Part shown: positions 809 through 59,580 of the stretch, in pieces
How the letters are laid out: each line of letters begins with the position of its first letter
Numbering within the stretch: position 1 is the stretch's first letter
NCBI GenBank assembly: GCA_951406725.2
Contig: OX597818.1
Span: forward strand, 47,430,001-47,494,000
Direction of reading: 5' to 3'
Source of the DNA: Octopus vulgaris
Lineage: Eukaryota
DNA: 64,000 bases
The notes under the pieces: generated by a model
Database searches by the model: none
What the model was told of the DNA's origin: nothing
What the model saw: only the letters and a program-made list of their open reading frames with translations
Position numbers and translations under genes: made by a program

Positions 809-1363
809 ATTATTATTATTATAATTGAGTGAGAGAGCAGAGCATGCCATCAAAGTGACACTAGGGTAAAATATACAAAGCCCAGTATACCCATCTGATA
901 AAGATACACCAGGCACAGGCATCACAACCATATGTGCACAACATGGAAATCTCATATCAAGATAAACAGTGCATGTGGGGCCCAGTTAGAATTTTCTTCA
1001 GGTCGAGTAACCCATCCCGCTCAGAAAGTCCCTGAATAAGGGTCGTTTAAAGATGCTGAACAAAACACCTATGTTTCCAGAGGTGAATTATCCAAACCCC
1101 AAAGAATTCCTCTCAACACATGGTTACGATGCCCCACCACTACTTCTGCTCGTGATCAGAGCTGCACATATCGTCAGCCACTAAGGGACATGCTCAACTA
1201 GTTAAGATTAAGCAACTGACAAGCAAATCTGTAGTATTGAGCAGAATATTTGCTGTAGCCCATCTTTATACCGAGACAAAACAATGTACATGATAACACT
1301 TCCAATCAGTTAAGATCAGAAGCCATAAGAGCCACTGCCTGGTACTGCAATTATTATTATTAT
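809..1363 (-). repeat. Unclassified interspersed repeat, probably a LINE 3' UTR, bounded by (ATT)n tracts
   Basis: Higher-complexity block flanked on both sides by ATT microsatellite; no credible ORF. Confidence 0.4.
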
Positions 1364-1397
1364 TCAATTTTTCTAAAAACAAAAACACACTCCTTAC

Positions 1398-1504
1398 CTT
1401 TGCACGTATAAGGTATGGCGGGACAATCTCAATATCAAGTTCTTCACACATTTTCTTGCTTTCCATGATAATGAAGTCACCTGCCAGCGGGGATTTTACA
1501 ATTG
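1398..1504 (-). CDS. ACTL6A: Actin-like protein 6 (BAF53/Arp4) coding exon, 107 nt
   Basis: ttttag|CA ATT GTA...GCA AAG|gtaagg; (A)[35 protein letters not shown], matching vertebrate [36 protein letters not shown]. Confidence 0.96.
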
Positions 1505-1858
1505 CTAAAAACAGAGCACAAACAATATTTTAAACATCAGCGTCATCATTTTAACATCTGTTTCTCCATGCTGGCATGGGTCAGATGGAGTTTTTAACGA
1601 GGCAGATTTTTTTTGTGGCTTGATGCTCTTTCTGTTGCCAACATTCACTTGTTTCTAATCAAGTTAATATTTCCTCATGCTCAGCCATGTTTTCACAGAA
1701 TATTGGAAATGGATGCTACTGTCTCTATGACAGCGACACTCATTTACAAGAATCATGCAATGTTAAATCAAGGAGACACAAACCCACAAACAGTTTCTAC
1801 CAAACAAATTCACTCACAAGGTTTTGGTCAACTAGGACTATAGGAGCCACACAGTCAC

Positions 1859-1893
<35 letters not shown>

Positions 1894-1894
1894 T

Positions 1895-2240
1895 CGCTGC
1901 CAGAGCGGCTATCTGGCCTCCATACCGGTGGCACAAAAAAGACACCATTCGAGTGTGATCGTTACCAGCATCGCCTTACTGGCACCCGTGCCTGTGGCAT
2001 GAGTAAAAGATTCGAGCGAGGTCGTTGCCAGTGCCGCCTGACTGGCCCCATGCCAGTGGCATGTAAAAAGCACCCACTACACTCTCGGAGTGGTTGGCGT
2101 TAGGAAGGGCATTCAGCTGTGGAAACTCTGCCAGATCAAGATTGAAGCCTGGTGCAGCCATCTGGTTCACCAGCCCTTAGTCATACGTCCAACCCATGCT
2201 AGCATGGAAAGCGGACGTTAAACGATGATGATGATGATGA
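1895..2240 (+). mobile_element. 5'-truncated 3' UTR of the abundant RTE LINE, (GAT)n tail
   Basis: GGTGGCAC..AAAAAGCACC units, GGTTGGCGTTAGGAAGGGCAT motif, AACGATGATGAT tail; many copies in the window. Confidence 0.8.
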
Positions 2241-2250
2241 TAATATATAT

Positions 2251-2830
2251 GAGGACTGATCAAAAAGTAGCAGGACTCATCATCATCATCATTGTTGTTG
2301 TTTAACGCCTGCTTTCCAAGCTGGCATGGGCTGGACAGTTTGACTACAAACTGGAAAGCTAGGGGGCTGCACCAGGCCCTAATCTGATTTGGAAATGTTT
2401 CTACAGCTAGATGCCCTTCCTAACGCCAAACACCATGGGGGTCAGTCAGGTGGCACTGACATCAGCCACGCTCAAATGGTGCTTTTTACGTGCTCACATT
2501 TCAATTTGGCACTTAACTTCCTTCAAAGTAGGCCCCCTCCTGAAGCCACACACTTTATCCAGCATCATTTCCACCAATGGGACCATTCCTGGAACTCCAT
2601 TTTTGAGATAGCAAGCAGTTGCCCTGTTGCATCCCTTTCAAGTGGGATTTGATTTTGGGAAAGAGGGAAAAGTCACAAGGGGCAAGATCTGGGGAATATG
2701 GTGGTTGTTGGACCTAGAAAGTGTTATGCTTGGTCAAAAACTGTTGCACAAGCTGTGCTGAATGGGCAGGTGCATTGTCATGGAGGAGTTGCCACCTACT
2801 GGACACATACAATTCTGTCCGATGACCACA
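2251..2830 (-). mobile_element. Mariner transposase relic with terminal repeat, interrupted by an RTE 3' UTR copy
   Basis: Minus strand HDNAPAH and QPPYSPDLAPCDFSLFPKIKSHLKG (YSPDLAPxD motif); TIR-like GAGGACTGATCAAAAAGTA at 2251. Confidence 0.8.
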
Positions 2831-2849
2831 CTCTAATCACTTTACTCCC

Positions 2850-4664
2850 AAGCAAGGGAGGTGGCCACACTGAAAGTATAGCAGCCAGAGTGAGGATATA
2901 CTGGATAATATTTGAATAGCTACGATTGCTTCAAACACCAAAGATTTTTCCCCCTTAGAGTGAAGGGCGGGTTGTATGATGCTTGTGTTAAAACTATGAT
3001 GCTGTATGGTAGCAACAGAAATGAGCAAGAATGTTATAACTTAGTGTACGTGCACAACAGAGTTCAAGGTTAGTCAGCTTCATTCTGCAGACTTTAGCTC
3101 CGTTACCATAGCAACAGTCCCTATACTTTTTTGATCAGTGTGTGTATATGTGTTTATACATACACTAATAGAAAAACCACCTTCCTTCATTTCTTTCAAA
3201 TCTCCTCAAATCTTCTGCATTCAAAGCCCATATGCTACTACCATGCAACACCATAGTTCTAACACAAGCATCATACAACCTGCCCTTCACTCTAAGGGAA
3301 AAAAATCTTTGTTGTAAGAAGCAACGGTAGCTATCCAAATATTATCCAATATCTCCTTACTCTGGCTACTATACTTTCAGAGCAACCACATCCCTTGCCA
3401 ATTACATTTTCGAGGTAACAAAAGCTATTAACCACATCTAGAGAGTCATCTGGGCATTTCAAGAGAATCTATTGCTGTTGTGTTCATACTATGTACCATC
3501 ACATTTGAACTGAAGTTCTCTGATTGCCTGCCTGTGATTTTACAACACATGCTTCAATAGCTTACACTGGGTACAGCATATGGAGTTTATCACCAACTCA
3601 TTTTCTGCATCAAACAAGCCATTTCCCTGAAGGTACCAGGTCCTTCTGATCTATTGATTCCACGTTTAGTTTCCATGTCTAGAATCTCCTCTTCAATTTC
3701 TCTATAGACTTAGCTATGAAAACTAGAATTCCAAGAACAGCCAATCTTAAACTCCCCTGTGATGGCTAGGACTACAATGAATAGCAAATTAAGGGCTGAA
3801 CCATACCCACATCACTGTTGACTTTCACTTTAACCACTGCATCTCTGTATACAGCTTGTAAAGCCTTCATGAGCCATTCATCTACAAGTTTCCTCAGTAC
3901 CCACCAAATTATATGAACACCATATCCTGTCAAATACTTTCTTCAAATCAATGAAAGCCAAGAATAGTGGCTTATTCTTAGCCAGGTATTTCTCCTACAG
4001 TTGTCTCACTAGGAAGATTACATCTGTGATGCACTGGAGACAAAGCCTAGCTGTATTTCATCCAGGTTTGCTCTATCACAGATCAATTGAGCTATGGTTT
4101 TCTCTATGACCTTAATAATTTGGTCTAGAAGTTTAGTTCTTCTATAGTTGCATCTCTCTAAGGTATCTCCTTTGCCTGTGTAATAGTTTACAATGATACT
4201 CCTATGTAAGTGTAATAGGGTATGGCATCTTGTATAACTTGATTATCTGGGTGATAATTGTGTATCCTACCTCACCAGATAGTTTGAGAGCCTCTTCAAA
4301 TATCCACCTGTCAAACACCTGAGTTTTCAAACTCCACCTGTCTAACACCCGTGGACATGTTTACAAAGTCAGAAAACAGCACAGCTCCCATGACTTTCGG
4401 AAGCATATTTTCACGCTAAGAGTTGCTGAAGCATGAAACAAACTGCTGACATCAGTTGTTGGTCGTCGGAGCACTGCATCCTTCAAATCTTCCATGCTTC
4501 CTGAGATTCGCCAACACTACACCTGATTTTCTTCCCTTCATACACACACAAGCTTGTATCTGACTCATACACTGTTCACTTCCCAGACATTTGTACATTA
4601 CTGCATATGCTTTATACGCACTTTTGACAAGTTATGGTGCACCTGAGCACTGTATACAATAATT

Positions 4665-4698
<34 letters not shown>

Positions 4699-5010
4699 CC
4701 CTGAGAGACCTGCAGCTCTCTCTCTCTTTTCATGTCCTTGTTGCTTTATCTACCACACAGCTATCAACAGAATTGCTCATGTCTCTTGCAGGGTCAGCAT
4801 AAAGTAGCATTTCTTTATCCTATGTGATCTCCCTCTTCAGCAGCCTGTTTTAACAGCACTTACATGCTATTTTCTTGTCTTCCACGTCGATGGTAAGCAT
4901 GCCTTCATCATTCCAAATACACTTCTCAGTCTGATTTCTCATTGCAATTCTGAACACTTTAAGCCTCTGTCCCTCAATTTGCAGGACATGCAAATCTTTT
5001 TTTTTCTGCT
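2850..5010 (-). mobile_element. Degenerate RTE LINE RT region (minus), with a short inverted copy at 2850-3060 and a nested CR1 fragment
   Basis: Homologous to the RT at 23410-24750 (AFID, VWW, RVKGRLYDACV motifs), with many stops and frameshifts. Confidence 0.75.
4290..4697 (+). mobile_element. CR1-like LINE 3' fragment with (ATT)n tail
   Basis: FKLHLSNTRGHVYKVRKQHSSHDFRK..TLRVAE; near-identical to 7030-7441 and 11205-11694. Confidence 0.85.
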
Positions 5011-5029
5011 TACGGTTTAACCAAGTATA

Positions 5030-5457
5030 TTTGCGACTTATGGATACGAGACCTGGACACTAAAGAAAGCTGACCAGAAGAGAATTAATGCATTCGAGCT
5101 TTGGTGTTGGAGAAGACTTTTACGGATTCCATGGACAGCGTGGCTCACCAATGAAGAAGTTCTCAAGTAGATCAGGCCAAAAATGTTGCTAGAAGCTAAA
5201 ATCACCAAGCATAGAAATGGCATATTTCGGTCATATTATGCGGAGAAAATCCCTGGAGAAGGACATCCTGCTCGGAATGGTCAGTGGCAAGAGAGAAAGA
5301 GGCCGACCAAGAACCCGCTGGCTTGACACCATCAAGAGTGATACCGGAATGGACATAGCCAATTTGAAAGAAGCAGCCCAGGATAGAACTGACTGGAGGA
5401 CACTGATCCAACGAGTAACCGAGAGTCGACTTCGACTGAGCGGATAGATAGATAGAT
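5030..5457 (+). mobile_element. RTE/BovB-like LINE 3' end with (GATA)n tail
   Basis: YETWTLKKADQKRINAFELWCWRRLLRIPWT...YFGHIMRR..LEKDILLGMVSGKRERGRPRTRWLD. Confidence 0.88.
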
Positions 5458-5853
5458 TTGCAACTTAGCTGCCTTTCTAACCTAAAGCTCCCTACTACCA
5501 CCTTCCTTCATGAATATTCATGATGTTAACATGTATTGAAATATACAGATTATCTTATCAGATAAAATATACATATACACTCCCGTAATAACAGCACAGA
5601 TGCATAGCTATATCTATGTCTGTTTGCTTTTACTCAAATATGCATGAACACAAGCATACCACAAACACTATCAATGATATATAGAGATATACTTTCACAG
5701 ACAGCACACACACACACACACAAATAGCTACAAATATTTACATATATACTCAGGTGTTGATTTGAATCTGGACCACATATAAAAATGGTCAAAACTTTGT
5801 GTGTGTGAGTGTGTATGTATATATATATGTGAAAATGTGTGTATGTAAATATG

Positions 5854-6261
5854 GGATCTTTTCGGTTTGAACGGCAGTTTTTTCTAGTGGTGTCATATGA
5901 AATTGTCACCCATAATTATGACCCTAGTATCGATCTATTGCATTTCAATCTGTTTTAAAGTTAGTGGGAAGGGTATCTTTTTTTCTTCACAAATGTAAAT
6001 AAACCCAATCTGTTTCTTAAACGAGGGACATATTCATACGGCACGAAATGTTTTTTTACCTCAATAGATGTATTTGATTGGTTGAAATTGCAGAAATTGA
6101 AGAAGAAAAAAACAACAAATATCTTACAAACTATAGAATTTTCTCAATAAAGCCAAGAGAAAAAGATGTTTTATAAACACATTCTACCAGTATACGAAGT
6201 TTAAAATATTTTAGTTACCTAGAAATTATGTTAAAAACTGCCGTTCAAACCGAAAAGATCC
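5854..6261. mobile_element. MITE with about 28-bp TIRs and 8-bp TSD (Merlin-like GG termini; superfamily tentative)
   Basis: GGATCTTTTCGGTTTGAACGGCAGTTTTT ... AAAAACTGCCGTTCAAACCGAAAAGATCC, flanked by TAAATATG at 5846-5853 and 6262-6269. Confidence 0.88.
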
Positions 6262-6508
6262 TAAATATGTGTATGATTCACATTTGTCGTAGGTGTTACA
6301 TAATTTCTAGGTACAAAATAACAATACTGTTGATACCATCATCACTTAATGTCCTTTTTTTTCCATGTTGCCATGTTCAACAGGAGCCAATGAGTCAGAG
6401 GGTTGTGCCAAAGCCTGTCTGCTTCAGCATGGTTTCAACAACTGGATGTCCTTAACACCAATGGACATTTTTTCCAAGGCACCCGCACTAGCGAGATTAA
6501 GTACGTGT

Positions 6509-6833
6509 AAGACAAGATCACTCAACTGAGTGGGGATATAGTGTTGAAGGATGTGAAATTATGATAGTGGGGACAGGAATAGATGCCTTACTGAAGAGGT
6601 GAATACATGGCTTCCTCTAAGATAGAGACAGACAGACAGAGAGATGTGAAGTCAAGGTACAAGGTGAGTAAGTAGGCAAGACAAAACCACTCAACTGAAT
6701 GGGGATATAGTGAAGGATTTGAAATTATGGTAGTGGGGACAGGAATAGATGTCTTGCTGAAGAGGTGAATACATGGCTTCCTCTAGTAGAGATGGAGAGA
6801 TGTGAAGTCAATGTACAAGGTGAGTAAATAGGC
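6509..6833. repeat. Tandem duplication, two units of about 160-170 bp
   Basis: AAGACAA..CACTCAACTGA...GTACAAGGTGAGTAA.TAGGC occurs at 6509-6677 and 6678-6833. Confidence 0.85.
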
Positions 6834-6893
6834 ATTTTAATGTGTTTTATTTTGCGTATGATGCAGTTAAATTAATCAAAGAACATAACCTAC

Positions 6894-6988
6894 CTTGTGT
6901 TAAAACATAACCATCATAGACAGGCACAGCTGTAGTATGTGTGGCACCACTGTCCAAAATTAATCCTGTTGAACGGCCATTTGCAAAA
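6894..6988 (-). CDS. ACTL6A: ACTL6/BAF53 coding exon, 95 nt
   Basis: ttccag|T TTT GCA AAT...ACA CAA G|gtaggt; (A)[31 protein letters not shown], the actin-fold phosphate-2 region. Confidence 0.97.
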
Positions 6989-7000
6989 CTGGAAATCACT

Positions 7001-7009
7001 GTTAAGGAA
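7001..7009 (-). promoter_or_regulatory. U12 branch point sequence TTCCTTAAC
   Basis: Exact U12 branch consensus ending 12 nt before the exon. Confidence 0.93.
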
Positions 7010-7029
7010 GCACTTAGATTATATTTTCA

Positions 7030-7441
7030 AGACACCCATAAAATTATTAACCATCTTACAAACAATAACTCTGAGCACCTTTTCAAACACCACCTGTCTA
7101 ACACCCATGGGCATGTTTATAAAATCAGAAAACAGCACAGCTCCCATGACTTTCGGAAGCAATTTTTCACACTAAGAGTTGCTGAAGTATGGAACAAACT
7201 GCTGGCATCAGATGTTAGTTGTCGGAGCACTGCATCCTTTAAAACTTCCATGCTTCCTGAGATTCGCCAACACTACACCTGATTTTCTCCCCTCCATACA
7301 CACGCAAGCATGTATCTGACTCATACATTGTTTACTTCCCACACATTTGTACATTACTGCATATGCTTTATACACACTTTTGACAAGTCGTGGTGCACCT
7401 GAGCACTGTATACAATAATTTCATTATTATTATTATTATTT
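7030..7441 (+). mobile_element. CR1-like LINE 3' fragment with (ATT)n tail
   Basis: DTHKIINHLTNNNSEHLFK...TRGH-like...FFTLRVAEVWNKL...FKT. Confidence 0.88.
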
Positions 7442-7678
7442 TCAAAAGTTCCCACCCATGTTCAGTAAGCATAGGTTTGTAAAGTTACAACCTTAATCAA
7501 TCCTTTTAAAACAAATATAAAATGATGGCATTAGAGATAATGTATGACAATGTACTTGTTGCAGTGAAGATATTGGTGAAAGTGATGATATACATATAGA
7601 TATATATGAGTGAACCTCATCATCATCATCATCATCAAATATCCAGCATGCCACACATTTGATTGGAGTTACAAGTAT

Positions 7679-7909
7679 TTAACCCTTTTGTTACTGTATT
7701 TATTTTGAGATGCTCTGTGTTTCTTTCAATTAATTTTAAATATAACAAAGAATTTAGAAAAATAAGTTAGTTATCATTAAGCTAGTGTTAGGAACATAAA
7801 TTGTGATTAAAGGTTTGGTGGAAGATTTTAATTCAGAACTTTTGAAAGCAAGACATTTGTACTACAGAGCCAGAAGCGTTTTTTTCCAGGTTGGTACCGA
7901 AAGGGTTAA
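7679..7909. mobile_element. piggyBac-like MITE family B (about 230 bp)
   Basis: TTAA-CCCTTTTGTTAC ... GTACCGAAAGGG-TTAA; further copies at 15541-15770, 28549-28776, 48881-49094, 50870-51092, 60175-60399. Confidence 0.85.
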
Positions 7910-8009
7910 TTTGCCTCAACTATTCATGCTCATCTCATCAGATATTTGTAGTTGAAATGGAGAGTTTGAAAGAAATTGAACATGACTTCTAGGTATTTAG
8001 GCCCCTAAA

Positions 8010-8242
8010 TAGGCGGCGAGCTGGCAGAATCGTTAGCACACCGGGCAAAATGCGTAGCTGTATTTCGTCTGCTGTTACGTTCTGAGTTCAAATTCCACCG
8101 AGGTCAACTTTGCCTTTCATCCTTTCGGGGTCGATAAATTAAGTACCAGTTACGCACTGGGGTCGATGTAATCAACTTAATCCTTTTGTCTGTCCTTGTT
8201 TGTCCACTCTATGTTTAGCCCCTTGTGGGTAGTAAAGGAATG
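8010..8242 (+). mobile_element. tRNA-derived SINE with Meta-domain-like core (family S2)
   Basis: GGCGAGCTGGCAGAA head, GAGTTCAAATTCC B box, core GCCTTTCATCCTTTCGGGGTCGATAAATTAAGTACCAG; copies at 12215-12448(-), 27639-27872, 31299-31477, 40119-40352, 49930-50163(-), 53366-53511(-). Confidence 0.8.
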
Positions 8243-9912
8243 GGTATTTAGGCCCCTATTGTTCAGTTCAGGTCATGTGGTATTAATGCTGTTAAAGAGA
8301 CACCAGTTATTTTCTCTGATCACATATTCTACAGCTCACCATGTTGGTTATGCAAACTAAATAGTAACACAACACCATCAAAATGGTTACTTTCACATAA
8401 AGTCTACTACTGCTAATGTGTTTGAACCCCTGACATGTGAAAACATTCTACCCTACTATGTGCAGTACTCAACCAACAATAAATCCCCTAACTATACCTG
8501 CTAACATCACCCCCATATGACCAATAAGCAATCAACCTTTTTATATCACTCTGACCAACACAAATACCATAACCTTCCATCAAAAGTAGTGCCAACATAC
8601 TGTCCAAACACATGGATCTAAAAATAAACAAAATATTGCTTTGATAGTATTAGTACCACATGAGCTGAACTGGTCAACTGAAGCCTAAACACCTAGAAGC
8701 CACCCTGAATTTCTTTCAAACCCTCAACTCTGCATCCAAACATCTGATGAAATGGATGCATCCTACACATCCATGAAGATTTAAGGCACGTACAGCTCGG
8801 CAAATTGTTATTAACTCTTTAATATTCAGATTGATTTATCAAATATAGCTTATTTAATAACACAGCTTTTAATTAATCATGCATTCTCCTGTAACTGAGA
8901 TTTCAATGATGTGATTGTTTATTTTAGAACAACATTGTAGGGTGGGTGTTAGCATGGAAAGCGGACGTTAAACGATGATGATGATGATGATGATGATATA
9001 TATATTAATCAGCTGAAATTGCGAGGATGATCTGGTTCTTGACTGAGGATAGAAAGCTTCAAATGACTCGTCCTTGTTTTTTTGTATCGTCTATCTGGAT
9101 GTTTTGTTGTCCCTTTTTGTACCACCTAGTTGTCCGGATGTTTTGCATTCTTGTCCCATTTTGTATTTTATATATATATATCTCATACATACACATACAT
9201 ACTTCCAGTAATTATGAACAGCAATATAGAAATCAGAAATAAACTACATAGTTACATACAGACATATACAAAATATCAAGATAAAAATTACATATATCAT
9301 CTACATTCTTTCAGTTGTCAATTTTCTATCTTCCTTGCTATCTGTTAATTGTATTGATTTCATTGAAAAAAACTTTTTTTTGATGGGTGGGGAATCCAAA
9401 CCACTCTACTTGCTCTGCTACTATGAATGGCTAACTCACATTATATCTCACACATCTGAACAAAAGATAAGTAAGGAACCTTAATCCAGTGAACGTCTTA
9501 TTTTCTGACCCATATTAATTGTCCTTCAGCCATTCGAACCATACATTTCCTCAACAGTGGCTTTAACATTTTCAAGAAATTCTAATTTGTGTCTATTACA
9601 CTATTTGTTATGACTTGGAGAACTGTAACAAACTGAAGGGGCTGAGAACTGAGCTTTGATGAAAACCTATCTGCATTTTAATTCTTTACTGAATACATGT
9701 CTTAAATCTCACCTTGCTGACAAGACTTGCACAGCTAATAAGCCATTCAGCTTACTCCCAACCTTTTCTCACTATATTTGTTTCAATCAATTTTGAAAAT
9801 AATGAAAGAATTTGGTAAGATATCTCAGTCATTATCATGCTGGTGTTTGCAAGAGTAGTTAACATGGAATTTTGAAAGTTTTAATTCAAATTACTTTAAA
9901 ACAGGAAGTTTG

Positions 9913-10445
9913 GTTTTGTATGACAAACCAAGATTAATCTCAAATGATTTTGCATCACAAACCAAGATTAATCTCAAAAGATTTTGTATCACAAACCAAG
10001 ATTAATCTCAAAAGATTTTGTATCACAAACCAAGGTTAATCTCAAAAGATTTTGTATCACAAACCAAGATTAATCTCAAAAGATTTTGTATCACAAACCA
10101 AGATTAATCTCAAAAGATTTTGTATCACGAACTAAGATTAATCTCAAAAGATTTTGTATCTCAAACCAAGGTTAATCGTTTTAAAAATTAACAGCTACCT
10201 GTCAAAATCTCAAACCAAGATAATTGATTAGTTCAAAACAAAGTGGATGAAAAAACATTAATTTTATCAGAATAATGTGAACACTAAAGGTTAATCTCAA
10301 AAGATTTTGTATCACAAACCAAGATTAATCTCAAAAGATTTTATATCACAAACCAAGATTAATCTCAAAAGATTTTGTATCACGAACTAAGATTAATCTC
10401 AAAAGATTTTGCATCACAAAGCAAGATTAATCTCAAGATTAATAT
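9913..10445. repeat. 34-bp minisatellite (ACCAAGATTAATCTCAAAAGATTTTGTATCACAA), about 12 units, interrupted at 10172-10294
   Basis: The 34-nt periodicity is directly readable. Confidence 0.92.
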
Positions 10446-11204
10446 CAAAAGAGTATGTTCTGTCAAAGCTGCTAGTCATAGTGGCTTAGACGTACTCAAG
10501 AACTTCTCTTGCAGTGTTCTCATGAGAAAGAAGGCATCAGTGGTACTCCATTTTGGCTTAAACTGAAACTGCATTGCATCTCATTTAATTCACATCCACC
10601 ATTTTCAACTATTTGGATAGTTTCATCAATTTGTATATTTACAATTGAAATTATAGAAACAAATATTTTACTGTTGGATATTTCCCCCCCAAAACTTACA
10701 ACTGGAACCTAAAATAATAGCAACAAGAATAAACAGAGTAATGTACCCTGCTAAGAGAAAAATTCAATGGAAGAATAGGGATTCATAATTTACTTCCTAA
10801 TTCTAGCCTTCCAAATTGTGGGGCACCAAAACAATTATACAGAGGTCATTTTTGGAGATGTACCTATTCAACTCACATCTTGCACACAACATAATTGAGT
10901 CTGAGACTTTTGTAGTGCATACATTAAAGAAGGGTAATAGCTAAAATGAGCTCCAAAAAATGCAATTACCAAATGGCAACCTGGATAGGATCTATCATGG
11001 CTTTCTATGGACCCAATTGCTTATGCATAGGTCTACCATGAGCACCAGGACTAATAAGGTCAGAGTTTAATCCAGTTTACATTGTGTGGAAGTGAGTGAG
11101 ATTTCAACACTCCGTCCTGGACAGGATGGCAGTCTATTACAAGGCTAATTTCCCAGTTACTGCTGGAACTCATTTACACCTGAGTGGACTGAAGAAATGT
11201 GAAA

Positions 11205-11694
11205 GGAAATGCTGCCATATTCTGAATGCCTTACTTCCCTGGGCATGGATACATTGAAACTCCGACGTCTGGCAGCTGACTTGGCAGATACACATAAAAT
11301 TATTAACCATCTTACAAACAATAACTCTGAGCACCTTTTCAAACTCCACCTGTCTAACACCCGTGGACATGTTTACAAAGTCAGAAAACAGCACAGCTCC
11401 CATGACTTTCGGAAACATTTTTTTACGCTAAAAGTTGCTGAAGTATGGAACAGACTGCTGGTGTCAGTTGTTAGTTGTCGGAGCACTGCATCCTTCAAAA
11501 CTTCCATGCTTCCTGAGATTCACCAACACTACACCTGATTTTCTCCCCTCCATACACACGCAAGCATGTATCTGACTCATACACTGTTCGCTTTCCAGAC
11601 ATTTGTACATTACTGCATATGCTTTATATGCACTTTTGACAAGTTGTGGTGCACCTGAGCACTGTATACAATAATCTCATTATTATTATTATTT
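11205..11694 (+). mobile_element. CR1-like LINE 3' fragment inserted into an older minus-strand SINE
   Basis: LPYSECLTSLGMDTLKLRRLAADL...WNRL; (ATT)n tail; SINE-like flanks at about 11110-11205 and 11700-11790. Confidence 0.88.
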
Positions 11695-12044
11695 TTATAT
11701 AGAACACAATGCACTGGCTGGTTTAGGAATCAAAACCAATGATTTTACAATCATGAGTATAACACACCTACCTCAAGCCCATGTACTGTCACAATGATCC
11801 AATTAGTATATATTGGTTTCAAATTTTGGCAAAAGGCCAGTAATTTCAGGGGTAGGTGTAAGTTGATTACATTGGCCTTAGTGCTCAACTGGTACTTATT
11901 TCATCAACTCAAAAATAATGAAAGGCAAAGTTAACTTGGATGGAATTTAAACCCAAGAAGTAAAGATGGCTGAAATGGCGCTAAGCATTTTGCCAGATAT
12001 TTGGTTGTAATTGTCATATTAATATTTGGATTAATAAGCATCCT

Positions 12045-12208
12045 GGCATTTGAAGTGATCACTAATGATGACAATATTATGTTTCCATTCATCTTCCCAC
12101 ATGGCCTCACACTCAACATGGAGGCCCAACATCAAGTGCCTGGAGGAGGTAGTGCTGCCCTGGGTCAAGAGGGTGGCTGCTGGAAGACCCTGTGTCTGCA
12201 ACAGGACT
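12045..12208 (+). mobile_element. Tc1/mariner-superfamily transposase fragment (second copy 16431-16545)
   Basis: Consensus VF.VI.SDG.VMPPFIFPHGL.LN.EAYIKCLEEVVLPWVKRVAAGRP...QQD. Confidence 0.7.
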
Positions 12209-14573
12209 AACATTTCTATTTCTTTACTATCCACAAGGGGCTAAACGCAGAGAGGACAAACAAAGACAGAAAATGGATTAAGTCAATTATATCGATCCCA
12301 GTGTGTAACTGGTACTTATTTAATCGACCCCAAAAGGATGAAAGGCAAAGTCGACCTCGGTGGAATTTGAACTCAGAACGTAGCGGCAGACAAAATAGTG
12401 CTAAGCATTTCGCCCGACATGCTAACGTTTCTGCCAGCTCGCTGCCTTCCAATAAGTATATATTAAATGAATATATGAAATGCTTTTGCAGAGTTTTTAC
12501 AGAGTTATGATTACTTCCCTTGGTGAACCTTGTAGTTCAATGCTGAAGTTGGATTCATGTTTTCATTAAATTTTTAAGACCAGATACACAAATATCTAAA
12601 CATACTTTACTGTGTGTTGCTTAATAATCCAAATATTAACATGACAATTACAACCAAATATCTGACAACAGAATATTTCTTGATACTGATATGTTTTTAG
12701 ACTGTTTACTCATTAAAAAAGTATGTGCTACTCAAACCCCAACTAAAATCTTTAAAATTCCATTTCTGATATTGAAATACTTTTAAATTTAACCGAGCAG
12801 AGAATTATAATTCAAACATATTCATTTTGAATAATTTCTACACTGAAGTCAATGGTTCTCAAATCTTTGTAACTCAGTGCCACCTTTTACCAAATGGTAG
12901 TTTACAACTCCTCCTTTGCATGTTTGCAGGGGGAAAAAAAAACCTCCAACAAATCAATAGAGAAACTAATTTTGTACAATGGTTTCCTAATCGGGGTCAG
13001 AAACTTGGAGGGTCACCAAAGCTATAAAGAGTAAGCTACAGACCTTTGCCAGTGACTAGATGAAATTTCAGACAGAAGTTTGTGAGATAGAATGAACCAG
13101 ACTCTCATCAACCAAGAAATTCTGAAAAGGAAACGGGGCTGGAACGATCACACTCTAAGGAGATCACCAAGAAGCAATGCAAGACAAGTGTTAGATTGGC
13201 AACCTGAAGGAAAGAGGAAAGTTGGATAACCTTGTAGTAAGAGATGATATTTTTTTTTTTTTTTTTTTTACTGTAGCATGAGTTAGTTGTTTGAGACAGG
13301 CACTGACCAGTTAAGGTTAGCGTTGCAAAAATTCAAACATCAACTTCCGCCCAAGTCTAAGGCATGTCCAAGACTTAAAGTTCAGTCAGTTGCTGTGAAG
13401 ACATTGAACTGTCAACTACGTATTTTCCAGCTGCTCCTTCTATCACTTTTAACAGAGCATGGAAGTTTAACTTGGTACTATTTTAGTCATAATGACTATT
13501 AAGCCAAAGTTGCTTTAACCGCTCTGGAGCAATTTCCCTCTTCTCCATCTGACATTCGTCTTCATTTATTTTAAAGCTGTTATGAAGCTTATATCGTTGT
13601 TACCTTGTTTGCTGAAACTGATGTCTAAAGTAAGATTTCATCATCATCATCATCATCGTTTAGCGTCCGCTTTCCATGCTAGCATGGGTTGGACGGTTCA
13701 ACTGGGGTCTGGGAAGCCCAAAGGCTCCACCAGACCCAGTCAGATCTGGCAGTGTTTCTACAGCTGGATGCCCTTCCTAACGCCATGATGCCCTTCCTAA
13801 TGCCAAGGATGCCCTTCCTAACGCCAAAAAATTTATATCTACATTATGACATTTGACTCACATTGTATTGTATAATGGAACTGACATCACCTCCAGCTTG
13901 AAAAACCTTTAAATTGTAGTAATTACAACTGAATTTATTCATATCTTACGAATGTCATTCCTCCAAACTGTACGTCTACAACCTGATGTTTTACACACAC
14001 CTCATTTTCTCCTATAATTTACGTTTGTTCAGCATTGTTTGTACAGAGGATGAAGCAAAAGCAATCATTCTCCCTTGGTCTGAAATCAAGGAGGTATCCC
14101 AAGATCATATCCACTGGTATGAAATGGTCACAACTATATTTCTTATGGAGTAATGTGGACTAACTTTTCTCACCATCATCATCTAATGTCCATTTTTCAT
14201 GCCAGCATGGGTTAGAAAAGTTTGATAGAAGCCAATGAGCCAAAGGGCCATGCCAAGCTCCAATGTTTGTTTCTATGGCCGCAAGCCTCGCCTAAAACCA
14301 GTCACTTTACAGAGTGCGCTGGGTACAGTTTACATGGCTTTGCCATAAATAAGGTCACCAAGCAACTTGCAAGACAAGACCCTGCCACTGTAAAGTCTTT
14401 CTGATATTCTTTTAAGTCACTTATCTTGAAATACAGCTGTTAAAACTTTTGTTTCAACATTTACCACCAAATATTAGAATTTAGAGATATAAGATATTTT
14501 AGAATTTAAGACAGAGTGCACAGGGAAAGCTGTTAACTCGCTGTTATGGAGATGAGTTGCAATACAGAATCTC

Positions 14574-14802
14574 TTGACCCTTTAGCGCCTAAACTGACTA
14601 TATTTGGCCCAAATATTCTACCTGTTTTATGTTCAAACTAACCAGATCCAGTCTCTGGCACCTACCCTGCAGTGTCATTCTAAAAATAAGCAGACACATC
14701 TTCGAAAATCTCAAAGTTATAAGATAATACAGGATTAACTTTATAAAATGTGAATAAATAATTATTACATTTGACAAAGTAATCTGAATGCTAAAAGGTT
14801 AA
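14574..14802. mobile_element. piggyBac-like MITE family A (about 225 bp)
   Basis: Consensus termini TTAA-CCCTTTAGCATT ... AATGCTAAAGGG-TTAA; copies at 15221-15418, 26809-27205, 29584-29811, 50855-51283, 51430-52177, 56624-57134, 61148-61730. Confidence 0.82.
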
Positions 14803-15540
14803 TATACATCATCATCATCGTTTAACGTCCGTTCTCCATGCTAGCATAGTGGGTGCTTTTTACGTGCCACCTGCACAGGTGCCAGGCGAGGCTGGCAATG
14901 GCCACGGTCGGATTGGTGCATTTTACGTGCCACCGGCACGGAAGCCAGTCGAGGCGGCGCTGGCATCGTCCACCATTCGGATGGTGCTTTTTCGATTTCG
15001 ATTTCACTTGCCCCAACAGGTCTTCACAAAATTATCACAGATTTTGTTTTCTTTTACACAAACATGTTTTATATCATCATATATCTGCTTTAATGTTTAA
15101 AGCTATAATAATCTAATAAAAATAAGGAAATACCAATACTTTGCAAGGGAAAGGTGAAGACTTTCTGGTTTCTGCAAAAGTAATCTCACTAGGAATTACG
15201 TTGACCCTTTAGTATTCAGATGACTCCGTCAAATGTAATGCTTATTTATTCACATTGTTTTGAATTAATCTGCATTATCACATAACTTAGAAATTTTGAT
15301 AACGTGATGAATTATTTTTAGAATGACATTGCAGAGTAGGTGTGAAAGGTCAGATCTAGCTGGTCTGAGCATAAAATACTTTGGCCAGATATGGCTGGTT
15401 TAAATGCTAAAGGGTTAATATAGAAATCTGTTCTAGTAGGAACAGTAAAGATTGCTTAAAAGATTTTCAACACTTAGGGAAAATAGGTGTGACCTTGTAT
15501 CAAGGACATTGATTCTAAATTTAACACATTTGTTCATAGT

Positions 15541-15770
15541 TTAACCCTATTGTTACCATATTTATTTTGAGATGCTCTGTGTTTCTTTCAATTAATTTTA
15601 AATATAACAAAGAATTTAGTAAAATAACTTAGTTATCATTAAGCTGGAGTTAGGAACATTAATTGTGACTAAGGTTTGGTGGAAGATTTTAATTCAAAAA
15701 TTATGAAAACAAGACATTTGTACTACACAGCCAGAGGCTGTTTCAGCTGGGTTAGTAACAAAAGGGTTAA
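15541..15770. mobile_element. piggyBac-like MITE family B copy about 30 nt inside the U12 donor
   Basis: TTAACCCTATTGTTAC...GTAACAAAAGGGTTAA. Confidence 0.88.
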
Positions 15771-15801
15771 ATAACTATCTAAAAAGTTAAAATAACTGTT
15801 T

Positions 15802-15811
15802 AAAAGGATAC
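15802..15811 (-). promoter_or_regulatory. U12-type 5' splice site GTATCCTTTT
   Basis: Matches the RTATCCTTT U11-binding consensus exactly at the exon boundary required by the protein frame. Confidence 0.95.
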
Positions 15812-15909
15812 GCAGAAAGTACAGCATTTTTACAGAGGAAGAATGCTGGAACATTATATTTCTCAAACATGACTTCAGTTAATGTTTCTCGTTTAGCTTT
15901 TGTGTTCCA
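15812..15909 (-). CDS. ACTL6A: ACTL6/BAF53 coding exon, 98 nt
   Basis: ttccag|TGG AAC ACA...TCT GC|gtatcc; [32 protein letters not shown](A). Confidence 0.97.
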
Positions 15910-17238
15910 CTGGAAGATAAAAGAAAACAAACCCAGATATAAACAAGTAAATTAGAATCAGAGCTGTATGGAATTTGAAGGCATAAAAGATGCAGAAGTA
16001 TACTAGATGTACATATTCAGAAAAGAAAGTTTTAGTACATTACAGTATGTGTTACAGGTCCAACTTTGTATATAGAACCCAGGGCAATTTTTTGAGACTT
16101 TTGGTAATGGGGAAAAATGTGCATACTAAATGCTACCAAATATGGTACATCCGCCATATTGTGCACAACACATACAGTAAACTGAGTAAATTGACTCCCA
16201 TTTTATATTTTTAATTTCCCGCATTTGCATTGTTTGTTTTTAATTTTGTTGGCTACACAGTACAGTAGGGTCAGTTGGGCACGCTCTGTAAAAAAACAGC
16301 ACCATGACACAAATTTGGAAATGACATGCTGTACTGCTTGGAATTTGCACTGGAAGCTCAAATATAAATATTTCAGAGTATTTGGGTGTCAATCTGAGGA
16401 CATTGAGAGTGATAAAAATCAAACATCCTGGTGTTTGAAGTGATCATTAGTGATGGCAATGTTATGCCTCCATTCATCTTCCCACACGGCCTCACACTCA
16501 ACACAGAGGCCTACATCAAGTGCCTGGAGGAGGTAGTTCTGCTGAAGTAATCTGGAAGCTGTGGTTGAAGCCAATGGCAATTCTATTGAATAAATTTACT
16601 CTTTAGTATTTCAAGATATTTTTATGTAATTCTGGTAAATATATCTGTTAAAATGAGATGTCGGTGTTATTTTCATTTTTACGTAATTTAGACAACAGTT
16701 TACTCACCACACCTTGTAAATGAATTAACTTCTTTTTATTTGTTTAACAGAAAAAGAACAAAAGGTATCACATGACTTTTTAGTAACATCACATTAGAAA
16801 TTATCTGAATTAAAATTAGAATTTATCATTATCATTTATTAAATGATGTTGCATGAAGCAGTGCTAAATATATTTTATTCAATGCTGTTTCATTATTTAA
16901 TTCTAGCTTGACCAAGTGTTTTGCACATCAGTAAACATTCCATATGCTGATTTAACAAGAATAACTGTTTTCTAAATGGATTGTAAGTGTCTGATTTGGT
17001 TTTCATAGCTGATGAAGCAAAACAACACAGAAATGCATGTGTCCTATAATCCAATGTTGCTCACAGTTCAAAACAAATGTAATTCAACATATGTCTAAGT
17101 GGAGGAGACTACCTCCACAGCTAAAGGTTTTATCATGTCTGAATACATTCAAACGTGTTAAATATGATCTTATATGAATATATTACAATTATCTATTTTA
17201 TCCCTTAATTAAACAGATTGAAATTTTTAAAAACTTAC

Positions 17239-17339
17239 AGCAGGCTCTGACATCATGACAGGATGAAGATGAGGTTCAGATTTAATGTGACGAGAATACA
17301 CATAATCGACCATCTTCTCATAGGTCTCCCAGTTTTCAA
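17239..17339 (-). CDS. ACTL6A: ACTL6/BAF53 coding exon, 101 nt
   Basis: aatcag|TT GAA AAC TGG...CCT GCT|gtaagt; (I)ENWETYEKMVDYVYSRHIKSEPHLHPVMMSEPA. Confidence 0.96.
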
Positions 17340-18935
17340 CTGATTAAAAGAGAGCAAACATTAAAATAAAATTTGGGTCACACTTTTAAATAAGCTAATA
17401 TTAAGTCAATGTATGAAAAATACAGCAAAAATTGGAGTGGAATAAAGACATTAACAAGAGGGGGAAAAAAGAAGCAGTGGAGATAAAAAGTGTATTTATA
17501 CTTTTATGAACTGCAGCTATGCTGGGGCACCAGAATGAGACAGCTGGGCACAGATGTTTGGACACTGATGATTTGACTGGATTGGTACTGATTCCATTTT
17601 AGTGACAGTACTTTTTGGAGTTGGAGGAGAGGACACAAACACACACAAGAATATGCACATACAGATAAGAAGAGGGCAAGAAGGGAGAGACAGACAGACA
17701 GACATTACAATTTATTAATTGAAATTATTGATATAACCATTTCCGCATACATAAACACAGAGAGTGCAGGAGGGTGAGCAGGATGAAAGATACATTAAAA
17801 TGCCTGATGTCAAATAAGTCAGTGTCGAATCAGCAATGCCAAGTAAGTGGTGCCAAAGCAGCTGTGCCAAATTGACTCATACTCTTAGAGCACTGCCTTC
17901 AAAGATTTAGTTGATCATATCATCACCAGTACTTATTTCAGCCCATTTTGTGCATGTGTGTGTGTGTCTGAGTGTCTATGTATGCATTTGTGTGTACCGC
18001 TGTACTGACCAACATCACAGGATGGTAGTAAACAAGGGTCACTATCATGTAAGTATGTTGTCCATTTCCAGTCTTCTGTGAAAAACATGTCTGGCCAAAG
18101 GGACGCATTATTATGCTTGGAAACAAGTAAAGATTAGTAGCAGGAAGGGTATCTAGCCAAAGAAAATCTGTCTTAGCAAATTCCATCCGTCCCATGCAAG
18201 GATGGAAAAGTGGACATTAAAATGATAATGATGATGACACACATACACACATGATGGGCTTCTGTGCAAAGTTTCTTCTACCAAAATCCACTCACAAAGC
18301 ACTAATCTATAGTAGATGGTATTGTCCAAGGTGCCAGGCAGTGAGGTCAAAACAAGAACCACATGGTTGTGAACTTATAATCACACAGCCATGTCTGTGC
18401 CGTCTGTATTTTCAGAAAAATTTCAAACAATTCCATTGAGAATGCTGTGAGTCTCTGAATGATCCAATAACGATGATATGATAAACAGCCTAGTAAAACA
18501 TCTATGATGATGTATTGATCGAACTGTCAGAGTATGAGATAAAATGCCTTGTTCTGGTTCTTTACATTCTGAGTTCAAATCTCACCAGGGTCAACTTCAT
18601 CTTTTTGAACCTCCTGAGGTTGATAAGATTAGGCACCAGACCAAGTTGGTGAACTGACAGAATTATTAGAACATTCGACAAAATGATTTGTGATATTTGT
18701 TCTAGTTCTTTTACATTCTGAGTATCCAACTAGGTGTGGAAAACTTGTCTGTATGTTAACAATACTCATTATAGCAATGTCTTTTTCAAGGAATATTCTG
18801 TAATGGTGCCCGTGCCCTAGAACTTTCAAGAAAACATCAATGAAATGGCAGAGGAGCCACAAAGGTATCTCAGGAGGGGAGTGTGGGGGAAAAAATTCTC
18901 AACATATTTTGTTTCAAAAAAGAAGTTAGACTTAC

Positions 18936-19101
18936 TCATGCCATCTTTCAGGAATGTAGATATTTCCATTCCTTTTCTTGGCACCTTCAAATAGTTAGTA
19001 TCAATATAGTACTTTCTTTCATTCTTTGGCAAGCTCTCAGCTTCATTTTCTGTAAATGGAACCTCTTCATCCACAATCCCAACAACACTTGGGAGTTCAG
19101 C
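18936..19101 (-). CDS. ACTL6A: ACTL6/BAF53 coding exon, 166 nt
   Basis: ttctag|GCT GAA CTC...GGC ATG A|gtaagt; AELPSVVGIVDEEVPFTENEAESLPKNERKYYIDTNYLKVPRKGMEISTFLKDGM (YYIDTN motif). Confidence 0.96.
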
Positions 19102-19205
19102 CTAGAAAATAAGTAAATAAGATTTTCCCTAAAATTTCATATAAATTTAAAACAAACATATTCAACAAAAATATCAAAAAATCACTTACACAAGTAGGAC
19201 ACTGG

Positions 19206-19484
19206 ATGAAATGAGAAATAAGGAAAGCATCTAACAATGCTGAAAGTTTAAAAAAAAACTTTTATATTTCGGGTGCAAAGGCCCATCTTCAGAAGAATAC
19301 AGTCAAAGATCCTGCCGTTTTGGATAGTTTACACCAGACTATCTAAAATAGCAGGATCTATGATAATCCTGCCATCTATCAAATGGCAGGATTGTCTTCT
19401 GAAGATAAGCTTTTGCACCTGAAATATAAAGGCTTTTTAAACTTTATGCATTGTTAGACATTTTCCTTATCTCTCATTTCATTC
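19206..19484. mobile_element. Fold-back element with two divergent minimal hammerhead motifs (Penelope-like pLTR relic)
   Basis: Imperfect arms of about 90 bp; CTGAAGA..GAAATATA on minus (19292-19263) and plus (19399-19428); two internal hairpins. Confidence 0.65.
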
Positions 19485-21387: not shown

Positions 21388-22262
21388 TATTGGGTTGGCA
21401 ACTAAGTTCCTGCCGTTTTTTAAATTTTGGAATTTATTGCATTTAAAAATTTTGGAATCTTTTTTTTTTTTTGAGAATTCTATTTCTGAATCATTTTGGA
21501 ATCTTTTTTTTTTTCTAGTTAATTCTAGTTCATTTTTGTTTATTTTCAGATCATTAAAATGGAATGTCAAGTTAAGATAAGTGAGCATTTTCGACACCTC
21601 CTTCTTTTTGCTTTTAATCAAGGTTCTACGGCTGCAAAAGATGCTCACGACATTTGTGCTGTGTATGGAGAGGGTGCCATTGCTGAAAGAACCGCTTGTG
21701 ATTGGTATGCCAAATTCAAAAGTGGAAATTTTGACCTCAAAGATGCACCTTGTTCTGGCCATCCAGTTGAGTTCAATGAAGAGCGATTAAACCAACTTTT
21801 GCATGTAAACTCTCGTCAAACGACAAGGGAACTGGCAGAGAAAATTGAATGCTCCCATACTGCTATAGAGAAAAATCTTCACTCAATGGGAAAGGTTCAG
21901 AAGTATAGAGCATGGAATCCGCATGGTTTAAGTGATCACAACAAAAATCAACGAGCCACAATCTCCGCTGGTTTGCTTGCTCGTCACCACTCAACTCATG
22001 GACACAAACAACGATCTCTTTACCAAATCGTTACTGGCGACAAAAAATGGTGCCTGTACATTGATATGAAGCAGTGTAAGGAATGGCTTAGTCCCAATAA
22101 ACAAGCGACACCGCGCATGAAACAAGATCTTCATCTATGTAAAACGACATTGTGCATATGGTGGGACTGGGAGGGATTATCCATTATGACTTGCTTGAAT
22201 GGAACCAATCGGTCAACGCGGAACTCTATGTTCAACAGATGGAACGACTCAACATAGCTATT
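21388..22262 (+). mobile_element. Mariner element (mellifera-like), 5' two-thirds with left ITR; frameshifted and 3'-truncated
   Basis: TA+TTGGGTTGGCAACTAAGT ITR; ORF 21559-22257 with EHFRHLLLF, CAVYGEGA, WNPHGL (WVPHEL-like), IVTGDKKW; frameshift near 22175; no YSPDL or right ITR. Confidence 0.9.
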
Positions 22263-26404: not shown

Positions 26405-26481
26405 TTTTGGACTGTCTTCTCCAGCATATCCAGCACGAAATGAATAAGAACCAATGTCAAATACCAGCGCACCAACTTCAT
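26405..26481 (-). CDS. ACTL6A: ACTL6/BAF53 coding exon, 77 nt (exon 2 equivalent)
   Basis: ctgtag|AT GAA GTT...CCA AAA|gtaagt; (D)[25 protein letters not shown], the ACTL6 N-terminal signature. Confidence 0.97.
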
Positions 26482-57464: not shown

Positions 57465-57767
57465 ATCTAGATCTAATACTGAGATAAGACTGGAGGGAGA
57501 AATTTAAAATCTTGTACTAAAATGACTTCCTTAGTTGGCTCCAGATTCAAAGCAACACCAGCGTAAGTTAATGAAACTCATTAAAGTATAAGTATGTTGA
57601 ATAATTGAGTTTATCATTGTACTGTGGCACAAAAGGAAAATTGGCTTTGTTTGGTTGGCTAATAAAAATCTAAGTATTTAAGAATGGAAAGACCACTGGT
57701 TGTTTTCTATAGAAATGTCATTCAACATTCACCAAAGGAGACCAATATATAATTTTATTAGTAAATT

Positions 57768-57904
57768 TATATACATATATATACATATATACATACATAT
57801 ACATATATACACATATATATATATATATATATACATATATATATACATATATATACATATATATATACATACATATATACATATATATATACATATATAC
57901 ATAC

Positions 57905-57941
<37 letters not shown>

Positions 57942-57956
57942 TATATACATATATAC

Positions 57957-57989
<33 letters not shown>

Positions 57990-58129
57990 CATATATATAC
58001 ATATATACATATATATACATATATATACATATACATATATACATATATATATATACATATATACATACATATATATATATACAATATATATATATATACA
58101 TATATATATACATATATATATACATATAT

Positions 58130-58168
<39 letters not shown>

Positions 58169-58232
58169 TATATAATATATATATATACATATATATATAC
58201 ATATATATATATATACATATATATACATACAC

Positions 58233-58299
<67 letters not shown>

Positions 58300-58387
58300 C
58301 ATACATATATACATATATACATACATATATATATATACATATATATACATACACATATATATATACATACATATATATATACATACA

Positions 58388-58427
<40 letters not shown>

Positions 58428-58440
58428 CATACATATATAC

Positions 58441-58471
<31 letters not shown>

Positions 58472-58794
58472 CATATATATATACATATATATATACATAC
58501 ATATATACATACATATATATATACATACATATATATACATATATATACATATATATACATATATATACATACATATATATACATATATATACATATATAT
58601 ACATACATATATATACATATATACACATACATATATATACATACATATATACATACATACATACATATATACATACATACATATATACATACATATATAC
58701 ATACATATATACATACATATATACATACATATATACATACATATATACATACATATATACATACATATACATACATACATATATACATACATAT

Positions 58795-58827
<33 letters not shown>

Positions 58828-59099
58828 CATACATACATACATATATATATATATATACATACATATATACATACATATATACATATATACATATATATAC
58901 ATACATACATACATATATATATATATATACATACATATATATATATATATATACATATATACATACATATATACATACATATATATATATACATATATAC
59001 ATACATATATATATATACATATATACATACATATATATATATATATACATATATACATACATATATATATATACATATATACATACATATATATATATA

Positions 59100-59151
<52 letters not shown>

Positions 59152-59510
59152 CATACATATATACATACATATATATATACATACATATATACATACATAT
59201 ATACATACATATATACATATATATATACATACATACATATATACATACATATATACATACATATATATATACATACATATATACATACATACATACATAT
59301 ATATATATACATATATACATACATATATACATACATATATATATATACATATATACATACATATATACATACATATATATATATACATATATACATACAT
59401 ATATATATATATACATATATACATACATATATATATATATACATATATACATACATATATATATATATACATATATACATACATATATATATATATACAT
59501 ATATACATAC

Positions 59511-59580
<70 letters not shown>
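57768..59580. repeat. 1.8-kb compound (TA)n/(TACA)n microsatellite ending in (CA)n
   Basis: Almost uninterrupted purine-pyrimidine alternation, with no G on the plus strand. Confidence 0.97.

What the first reader, a model, noticed from the sequence alone, without database searches (positions are those of the whole stretch)
6989..15811. An 8.8-kb, TE-filled U12-type minor intron in a BAF53/ACTL6 gene
Seen: GTATCCTTTT donor, TTCCTTAAC branch box 12 nt before the exon, and an in-frame phase-2 junction (GC|T, Ala). Known: these are diagnostic U11/U12 signals, and minor introns are rare and can limit expression rate. From memory, vertebrate ACTL6A/B also carry a minor intron; this needs checking. 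Inference: an ancient minor intron expanded by TEs. A CR1 starts about 20 nt from the branch box and a MITE ends about 30 nt from the donor, yet both signals are untouched.
Basis: partly seen in the sequence, partly recalled or inferred. Interest (0 to 1): 0.75.

Follow-up and report, generated by a model that had tools for sequence, protein, structure and literature searches.

The report
Ordinary minor intron in octopus ACTL6
An octopus chromatin-remodelling gene (ACTL6/BAF53) carries a correctly spliced intron with the signals of the rare "minor" splicing machinery, likely the same intron already catalogued in the vertebrate genes, and its 8.8-kb, transposon-filled size is ordinary for this gene.

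Summary
On the minus strand, intron 5 of a 14-exon ACTL6/BAF53 gene (15811-6989, 8,823 nt, phase 2) has a GTATCCTTTT donor and a TTCCTTAAC box 12 nt before the AG. None of the other 11 introns scored has either signal. Contigs from 3 of 4 runs (three studies) join 15812 to 6988 exactly; the fourth, from a second organism, shows the same junction as a loose end. U11, U12, U4atac and U6atac genes are in the genome. Published tables already list a minor intron in human and mouse ACTL6A/B and zebrafish actl6a, with donors reading xGC|GTATCC, so this is very likely the orthologous intron (exact position inferred, not mapped). The size is not special: fourth longest of 13 introns (up to 59.7 kb), 49% repeat cover against 9-71% in the major introns, and 17 of 188 human minor introns sampled are longer. 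The LINE sits 21 nt from the box as stated; the MITE ends 40 nt, not 30, from the donor. No rate-limiting effect was shown. The scan's index held no earlier ACTL6 finding. Verdict: real, new member of a known kind, low interest.

The parts
26405..26481 (-). ACTL6 exon 2 (77 nt); exon 1 lies outside the window at G000:C5:47516156-47516132, giving a 59,650-nt intron 1
18936..19101 (-). ACTL6 exon 3 (166 nt)
17239..17339 (-). ACTL6 exon 4 (101 nt)
15812..15909 (-). ACTL6 exon 5 (98 nt), WNTKAK...NAVLSA; matches human ACTL6A residues 127-157
6989..15811 (-). Intron 5, 8,823 nt, GT-AG, phase 2, U12-type
15802..15811 (-). U12-type donor GTATCCTTTT, complementary to the 5' end of the genome's U11 gene
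15541..15770 (.). MITE with CCCT...AGGG termini between TTAA duplications (piggyBac-like by recalled rule), 40 nt from the donor; second copy at 7679-7909
11213..11698 (+). 5'-truncated LINE fragment, antisense to the gene; family with an RVT_1 frame in L023
7031..7436 (+). 5'-truncated LINE fragment with (ATT)n tail, flanked by a 9-nt duplication TATTTTCAA (7022-7030, 7437-7445); 21 nt from the branch box
7001..7009 (-). U12-type branch box TTCCTTAAC, 0 mismatches to the complement of the genome's U12 GTAAGGAA with one bulged A
6894..6988 (-). ACTL6 exon 6 (95 nt), FANGRST...; matches human ACTL6A from residue 160
1398..1504 (-). ACTL6 exon 7 (107 nt); exons 8-14 lie beyond the window's start

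Best explanation
This is intron 5 of the octopus ACTL6/BAF53 gene, spliced exactly at 15811/6989, likely removed by the minor (U11/U12) spliceosome and likely inherited from the common ancestor of molluscs and vertebrates. Shown: the gene, the boundaries, the splice, both signals, the four minor snRNA genes and their complementarity to the signals, and the repeat content. Inferred from the established mechanism: the U11/U12 di-snRNP binds the donor and the branch box together, U4atac/U6atac.U5 completes catalysis, and the AG 12 nt past the box is the acceptor; no long pyrimidine tract is needed. Inferred: the intron grew passively by LINE, MITE and other repeat insertion, like the gene's major introns, and insertions that hit the short signals were purged by selection. 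A retained intron would stop translation eight codons after the split Ala and would likely be degraded.
For: Signals unique among 12 introns scored: intron 5 has 0 mismatches to ATCCTTT (+3..+9) and to the box, the other 11 have 2-6 and 3-4. U11-donor duplex -9.4 kcal/mol against -3.8 to +0.1 for the others. Exact joint in one contig each of X1, X4, X7 (three studies), which also carry the three neighbouring joints; X10 (second organism) continues from 6988 into the end of exon 5. Rfam hits over cut-off: U11 5 of 41 candidates scored, U12 2 of 43, U4atac 1 of 51, U6atac 43 of 46. Human/mouse ACTL6A and ACTL6B minor donors AGC|, GGC|, CGC|, AGC|GTATCC (PMC6717393 supplement 1); vertebrate proteins read VLTA-FANGR there; only intron 5 of the octopus gene is preceded by GC. 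Intron lengths 1,329-59,650, median 5,867; repeat cover 0.49 against 0.09-0.71.
Against: No experiment shows which spliceosome acts. The vertebrate intron coordinates were not mapped onto exons, so identity of position is inferred from three exonic bases and the protein. The free-energy test of U12-branch pairing did not discriminate (-7.6 for intron 5, -4.2 to -8.6 for the others). The 3' end still has 8 of 14 pyrimidines, and one major intron has fewer (7 of 14). No intermediate invertebrate genomic copy with the intron was found. The runs are labelled RNA only by guess and are contigs, not reads.
Confidence: 0.92

Rival explanations
1. The intron keeps U12-type signals but is spliced partly or mostly by the major spliceosome (a hybrid, or a stage of U12-to-U2 conversion).
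For: GT-AG ends; 8 of 14 pyrimidines before the AG. The human ACTL6A intron responded in only 1 of 9 minor-spliceosome perturbation sets and the mouse intron in 1 of 6 (PMC11347168 Table S6 rows).
Against: Both signals are perfect; the donor has 3 mismatches to GTAAGT (as does major intron 9). The zebrafish actl6a intron responds in 2 of 2 rnpc3 sets and human ACTL6A retains its U12 intron on DDX59 knockout (PMC12095793 passage).
Confidence: 0.05
2. The long, repeat-filled minor intron acts as a selected brake on ACTL6 output: length and antisense repeats slow U11/U12 bridging, so retention sets BAF/INO80/TIP60 subunit supply by tissue.
For: It is 3.5 to 50 times longer than the vertebrate counterparts (174-2,517 nt); read-through meets a stop; slow minor splicing is a published hypothesis (PMC3584512 passage).
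Against: Length and repeat cover match the gene's major introns; 17 of 188 human minor introns sampled are longer; minor and major intron lengths correlate across species (rho 0.903). Nothing here shows regulated retention.
Confidence: 0.07
3. The U12 intron arose independently in cephalopods, or lies at a different codon from the vertebrate one.
For: Position identity was not mapped directly; an intron-poor genomic homologue (L033, one intron elsewhere) and a distant intron-less one (L048) have no intron here.
Against: Four vertebrate donors share xGC|GTATCC, which fits a phase-2 Ala after a four-fold codon as in VLTA|F; minor introns are typically ancient and conserved (abstract of PMC6865273).
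Confidence: 0.03

Closest known systems
Minor introns of human ACTL6A (1,749 nt), ACTL6B (1,214 nt), mouse Actl6a (2,517 nt), Actl6b (1,286 nt) (PMC6717393 supplements 1 and 8) and zebrafish actl6a (174 nt; PMC11347168 Table S6)
   Same: Same gene family, one GT-AG minor intron, donor xGC|GTATCC, TTCCTTAA-type box (human ACTL6A TTTTCCTTAATG); position very likely the same.
   Different: Longer (8,823 nt), with octopus LINEs and MITEs; the box here is a perfect TTCCTTAAC; one gene copy found rather than A and B paralogues.
GT-AG subtype U12-type introns (Turunen et al. 2013, PMC3584512)
   Same: Conserved donor and branch box, 12 nt to the acceptor (stated optimum 11-13 nt), no distinct pyrimidine tract.
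   Different: Nothing in the defining features.
Minor intron set of Octopus bimaculoides (401 minor introns; U11 3, U12 1, U4atac 1, U6atac 45 above Rfam threshold; PMC11347168 Tables S4, S7)
   Same: Same group of animals, with very similar snRNA gene counts.
   Different: The per-intron list was not seen, so whether this intron's orthologue is among the 401 is unchecked.

Membership tests
U12-type (minor) intron | Conserved 5' splice site RTATCCTT | tested here: met
   GTATCCTTTT, 0 mismatches; other 11 introns 2-6 mismatches
U12-type (minor) intron | Conserved branch box TTCCTTRAC 11-13 nt from the acceptor | tested here: met
   TTCCTTAAC, 12 nt; other 11 introns 3-4 mismatches at best (definition in PMC3584512)
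U12-type (minor) intron | No distinct polypyrimidine tract | tested here: inconclusive
   8 of 14 pyrimidines (part of them the box) against 7-13 of 14 in the other 11 introns
U12-type (minor) intron | Spliced at the predicted boundaries | tested here: met
   Exact joint in contigs of 3 of 4 runs; loose end into exon 5 in the fourth
U12-type (minor) intron | U11, U12, U4atac, U6atac genes in the genome | tested here: met
   All four over Rfam cut-off; expression not tested
U12-type (minor) intron | Removal depends on the minor spliceosome | not testable with these tools
   Needs knock-down; vertebrate orthologue data are mixed
U12-type (minor) intron | intronIC or PWM score above threshold | not tested
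   intronIC was not run; mismatch counts used instead
ACTL6/BAF53 (Arp4) gene | Best match to ACTL6 rather than actin over the whole protein | tested here: met
   Exon 6: ACTL6A E 5e-14 against actin 5e-06; 396 of 417 identical to P0001; P0001's named top hits are ACTL6A/B
Orthologue of the vertebrate ACTL6 minor intron | Same codon and phase | tested here: inconclusive
   Strongly consistent (xGC|GTATCC, VLTA-FANGR) but the vertebrate coordinates could not be mapped to exons; no paper stating the intron number was found
CR1-clade LINE | Non-LTR reverse transcriptase, 5' truncation, simple-repeat tail, target duplication | tested here: met
   RVT_1 E 1e-33 in a longer copy; (ATT)n tail and 9-nt duplication
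CR1-clade LINE | Placement in the CR1 clade by reverse-transcriptase phylogeny | not tested
   The label CR1 rests on recalled motifs; no reference set was used

The most novel reading that the evidence does not exclude
Transposon growth has turned the conserved ACTL6 minor intron into a tissue-regulated brake in octopus, so that with a single ACTL6 gene the animal tunes its neural-type BAF complexes through minor-intron retention, where vertebrates swap ACTL6A for ACTL6B.
Probability: 0.05. Interest if true: 0.6.

Novelty: new member of a known kind. Interest (0 to 1): 0.15.

Why it matters
It extends a catalogued vertebrate minor intron to a cephalopod, which places it in the bilaterian ancestor if the position is the same, and gives a verified junction for annotating octopus ACTL6. 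It shows again that minor introns tolerate length and nearby transposons. None of this would surprise a splicing specialist: hundreds of minor introns are already counted in octopus and longer ones are common in human. It would matter more only if retention proved regulated in octopus neurons.

Tried and rejected
Retention: in X7 and X10 no contig covered 6989-7009 (bin depth equals the exon's share alone); contigs drop rare forms, so this says nothing for or against retention. No holder was on record as RNA. Hidden RNA genes: 0 Rfam matches at gathering score in window 1-40000. Second U12 donor inside the intron: none; one other CCTTAAC at 13316 without a partner donor. A micro-exon explaining the different exon 5 end in X10: its letters are not in the intron. 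Free-energy test of U12-branch pairing: not discriminating. Age of the intron from metagenome contigs: 79 loci returned, 12 inspected; most had no introns or were actin-like, L033 (one intron elsewhere) and L048 lack an intron here. Mis-annotated proteins around the junction: 114 of 120 homologues matched the pattern with unchanged spacing, 6 did not match and were not examined. LINE shared with other organisms: contigs of X15 and X17 run 28-29 nt into it, under the 31-letter standard, so only a hint. Pfam gave nothing for the LINE fragments themselves. Intron number in print: not found in searches; supplements of PMC8848931 and file 1 of PMC4066798 could not be read and may state it.
Full report
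Observation. On the minus strand exon 5 ends ...GCTGTACTTTCTGC at 15812 and the intron opens GTATCCTTTT. It closes TTCCTTAAC-AGTGATTTCCAG, with the box at 7009-7001 and 12 nt to the exon at 6988. GTATCCTT and TTCCTTRAC each occur once in the window. In 328,001 nt of both strands around the gene, 9 of 18,489 GT read GTATCCT and 9 of 19,339 AG have TCCTTRAC shortly upstream, real sites included; the pair at an intron fixed by homology has a chance near 2e-7.

The gene. The flanking exons match human ACTL6A residues 127-157 and 160-191 far better than actin. A tblastn with Argonauta ACTL6 (P0001) and one pattern search gave 14 exons over 144 kb, from G000:C5:47516156 to 58 kb before the window's start. 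Exons 2-14 join to an open frame with one terminal stop, 396 of 417 residues identical to P0001. Exon 5 has one match among 16 candidates scored in the 2.8-Gb genome. The animal is an octopus by inference from this likeness and the genome size; earlier scan notes say the same.

Splicing. Four of the 20 holder runs were laid on 1300-19300. One contig each in X1, X4 and X7 (three studies, one organism) joins 15812 to 6988 with no ambiguity and also carries the three neighbouring joints. X10 (a second organism) lacked that row, but its contig has the same 193 nt between exons 4 and 7, and its loose end behind 6988 reads into the end of exon 5. The runs are RNA by guess only and are contigs, so levels and retention cannot be read from them.

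Machinery. Rfam searches of the genome found U11 (5 over cut-off of 41 candidates scored), U12 (2 of 43), U4atac (1 of 51) and U6atac (43 of 46), with 0 of 14 control genomes ringing. The U11 5' end AAAAGGG pairs with donor positions +4 to +10, and U12 GTAAGGAA is the exact complement of the box with one bulged A. Among the 12 introns scored (2-13; intron 1 was found later and only its GT was seen) intron 5 alone has 0 mismatches to both signals and a U11 duplex of -9.4 kcal/mol against -3.8 or weaker. The same energy test for U12 did not separate it from pyrimidine-rich major acceptors, and the pyrimidine count is not decisive.

Transposons. Half of the intron has other copies within 195 kb searched, a lower bound. 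Two 5'-truncated LINE fragments lie antisense to the gene at 7031-7436 and 11213-11698, 91-96% identical to longer copies elsewhere; the family is abundant (150 of 150 scored from 19,799 candidates) and a longer copy has an RVT_1 frame. The copy near the box has an (ATT)n tail and a 9-nt target duplication, so it inserted 21 nt from the box without touching it. The name CR1 is recalled from motifs, not tested. The MITE near the donor has CCCT...AGGG ends between TTAA duplications at 15541-15770, 40 nt from the donor; the piggyBac label is recalled.

Is the size special? No. The 13 introns measure 59,650, 7,303, 1,596, 1,329, 8,823, 5,389, 5,867, 3,337, 2,417, 5,818, 9,786, 24,537 and 7,310 nt: the minor one is fourth longest. 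Its repeat cover is 0.49 against 0.09-0.71 for 11 major introns and 0.45 for the region; repeats approach major splice sites as closely (+21 nt in intron 8, -27 nt in intron 6). In one of nine parts of a published table, 17 of 188 human minor introns exceed 8,823 nt, up to 86,662. Larue and Roy report that minor and major intron lengths correlate across species, rho 0.903. Intact signals beside insertions are what selection on an essential gene predicts (inference).

Comparison with what is known. Olthof et al. 2019 (PMC6717393; supplement rows and part 7 of file 8 seen) list minor introns in human and mouse ACTL6A and ACTL6B with donors AGC|GTATCCTTG, GGC|GTATCCTTA, CGC|GTATCCTCT and AGC|GTATCCTAC, 1,214-2,517 nt long. 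A variable base then GC fits a phase-2 Ala after a four-fold codon; elephant ACTL6A and mouse ACTL6B read VLTA-FANGR at this place, and only intron 5 of the octopus gene follows GC. The same position is therefore very likely but was not mapped. Olthof et al. 2024 (PMC11347168; supplement rows seen) class the human, mouse and zebrafish introns as minor; they respond to minor-spliceosome perturbation in 1 of 9, 1 of 6 and 2 of 2 data sets, and O. bimaculoides is given 401 minor introns and 45 U6atac copies. PMC12095793 (one passage) reports retention of the ACTL6A U12 intron on DDX59 knockout. PMC3584512 (passages) gives the defining features and the rate-limiting hypothesis. PMC10639083 (passages, section 32, supplement search) notes relative minor intron enrichment in molluscs. 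PMC7507305 (supplement rows) lists both genes with their disorders. PMC6865273 was seen as an abstract opening only. No paper naming the octopus ACTL6 intron came up in searches; databases and supplements that I could not see may list it.

Mechanism. Shown: boundaries, splice, signals, snRNA genes, complementarity, insertions. Inferred from the established pathway: joint recognition by U11/U12, catalysis by U6atac/U12, use of the AG 12 nt after the box. Inferred: inheritance from the bilaterian ancestor and passive growth. Untested: dependence on the minor spliceosome in octopus, slow splicing, regulated retention. Read-through gives a stop eight codons after the split Ala, so a retained transcript would likely be degraded.

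Verdict. A real, correctly described GT-AG minor intron; a new member of a known kind, very likely the orthologue of a catalogued one, with unremarkable size. Interest 0.15.

Noticed in passing
window 15812-15822 (end of exon 5), run X10: The second organism differs from the window at three consecutive third-codon positions just before the donor (V-L-S-A kept), while its listed neighbouring exons show 0-1 differences. One contig only; cause unknown.
   Followed up: partly
G000, many contigs (L020, L021): At least 43 dispersed U6atac copies over the Rfam cut-off; the two inspected share no flank beyond common repeats, so most are likely retrocopies. O. bimaculoides is already tabulated with 45.
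   Followed up: partly
window 26482 to G000:C5:47516131: Intron 1 of the gene is 59,650 nt, so most of the window beyond 26482 is this intron; intron 12 is 24,537 nt.
   Followed up: yes
window 21529-22254 (+): Decayed mariner/Mos1-type transposase fragment (HTH_48 E 3e-18, Transposase_1 E 2e-06) in intron 2.
   Followed up: partly
window 57682-59603: About 1.9 kb of TA/TACA microsatellite, GC 16% in its bin.
   Followed up: no
   Followed up: partly
window 7000-6999 (-): An AG directly after the branch box is skipped; contigs use the AG 12 nt on.
   Followed up: yes
L033:5001-6343: An ACTL6 homologue (55-77% identity) with a single short intron and none at the minor position: an example of intron loss in an unnamed organism.
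   Followed up: partly
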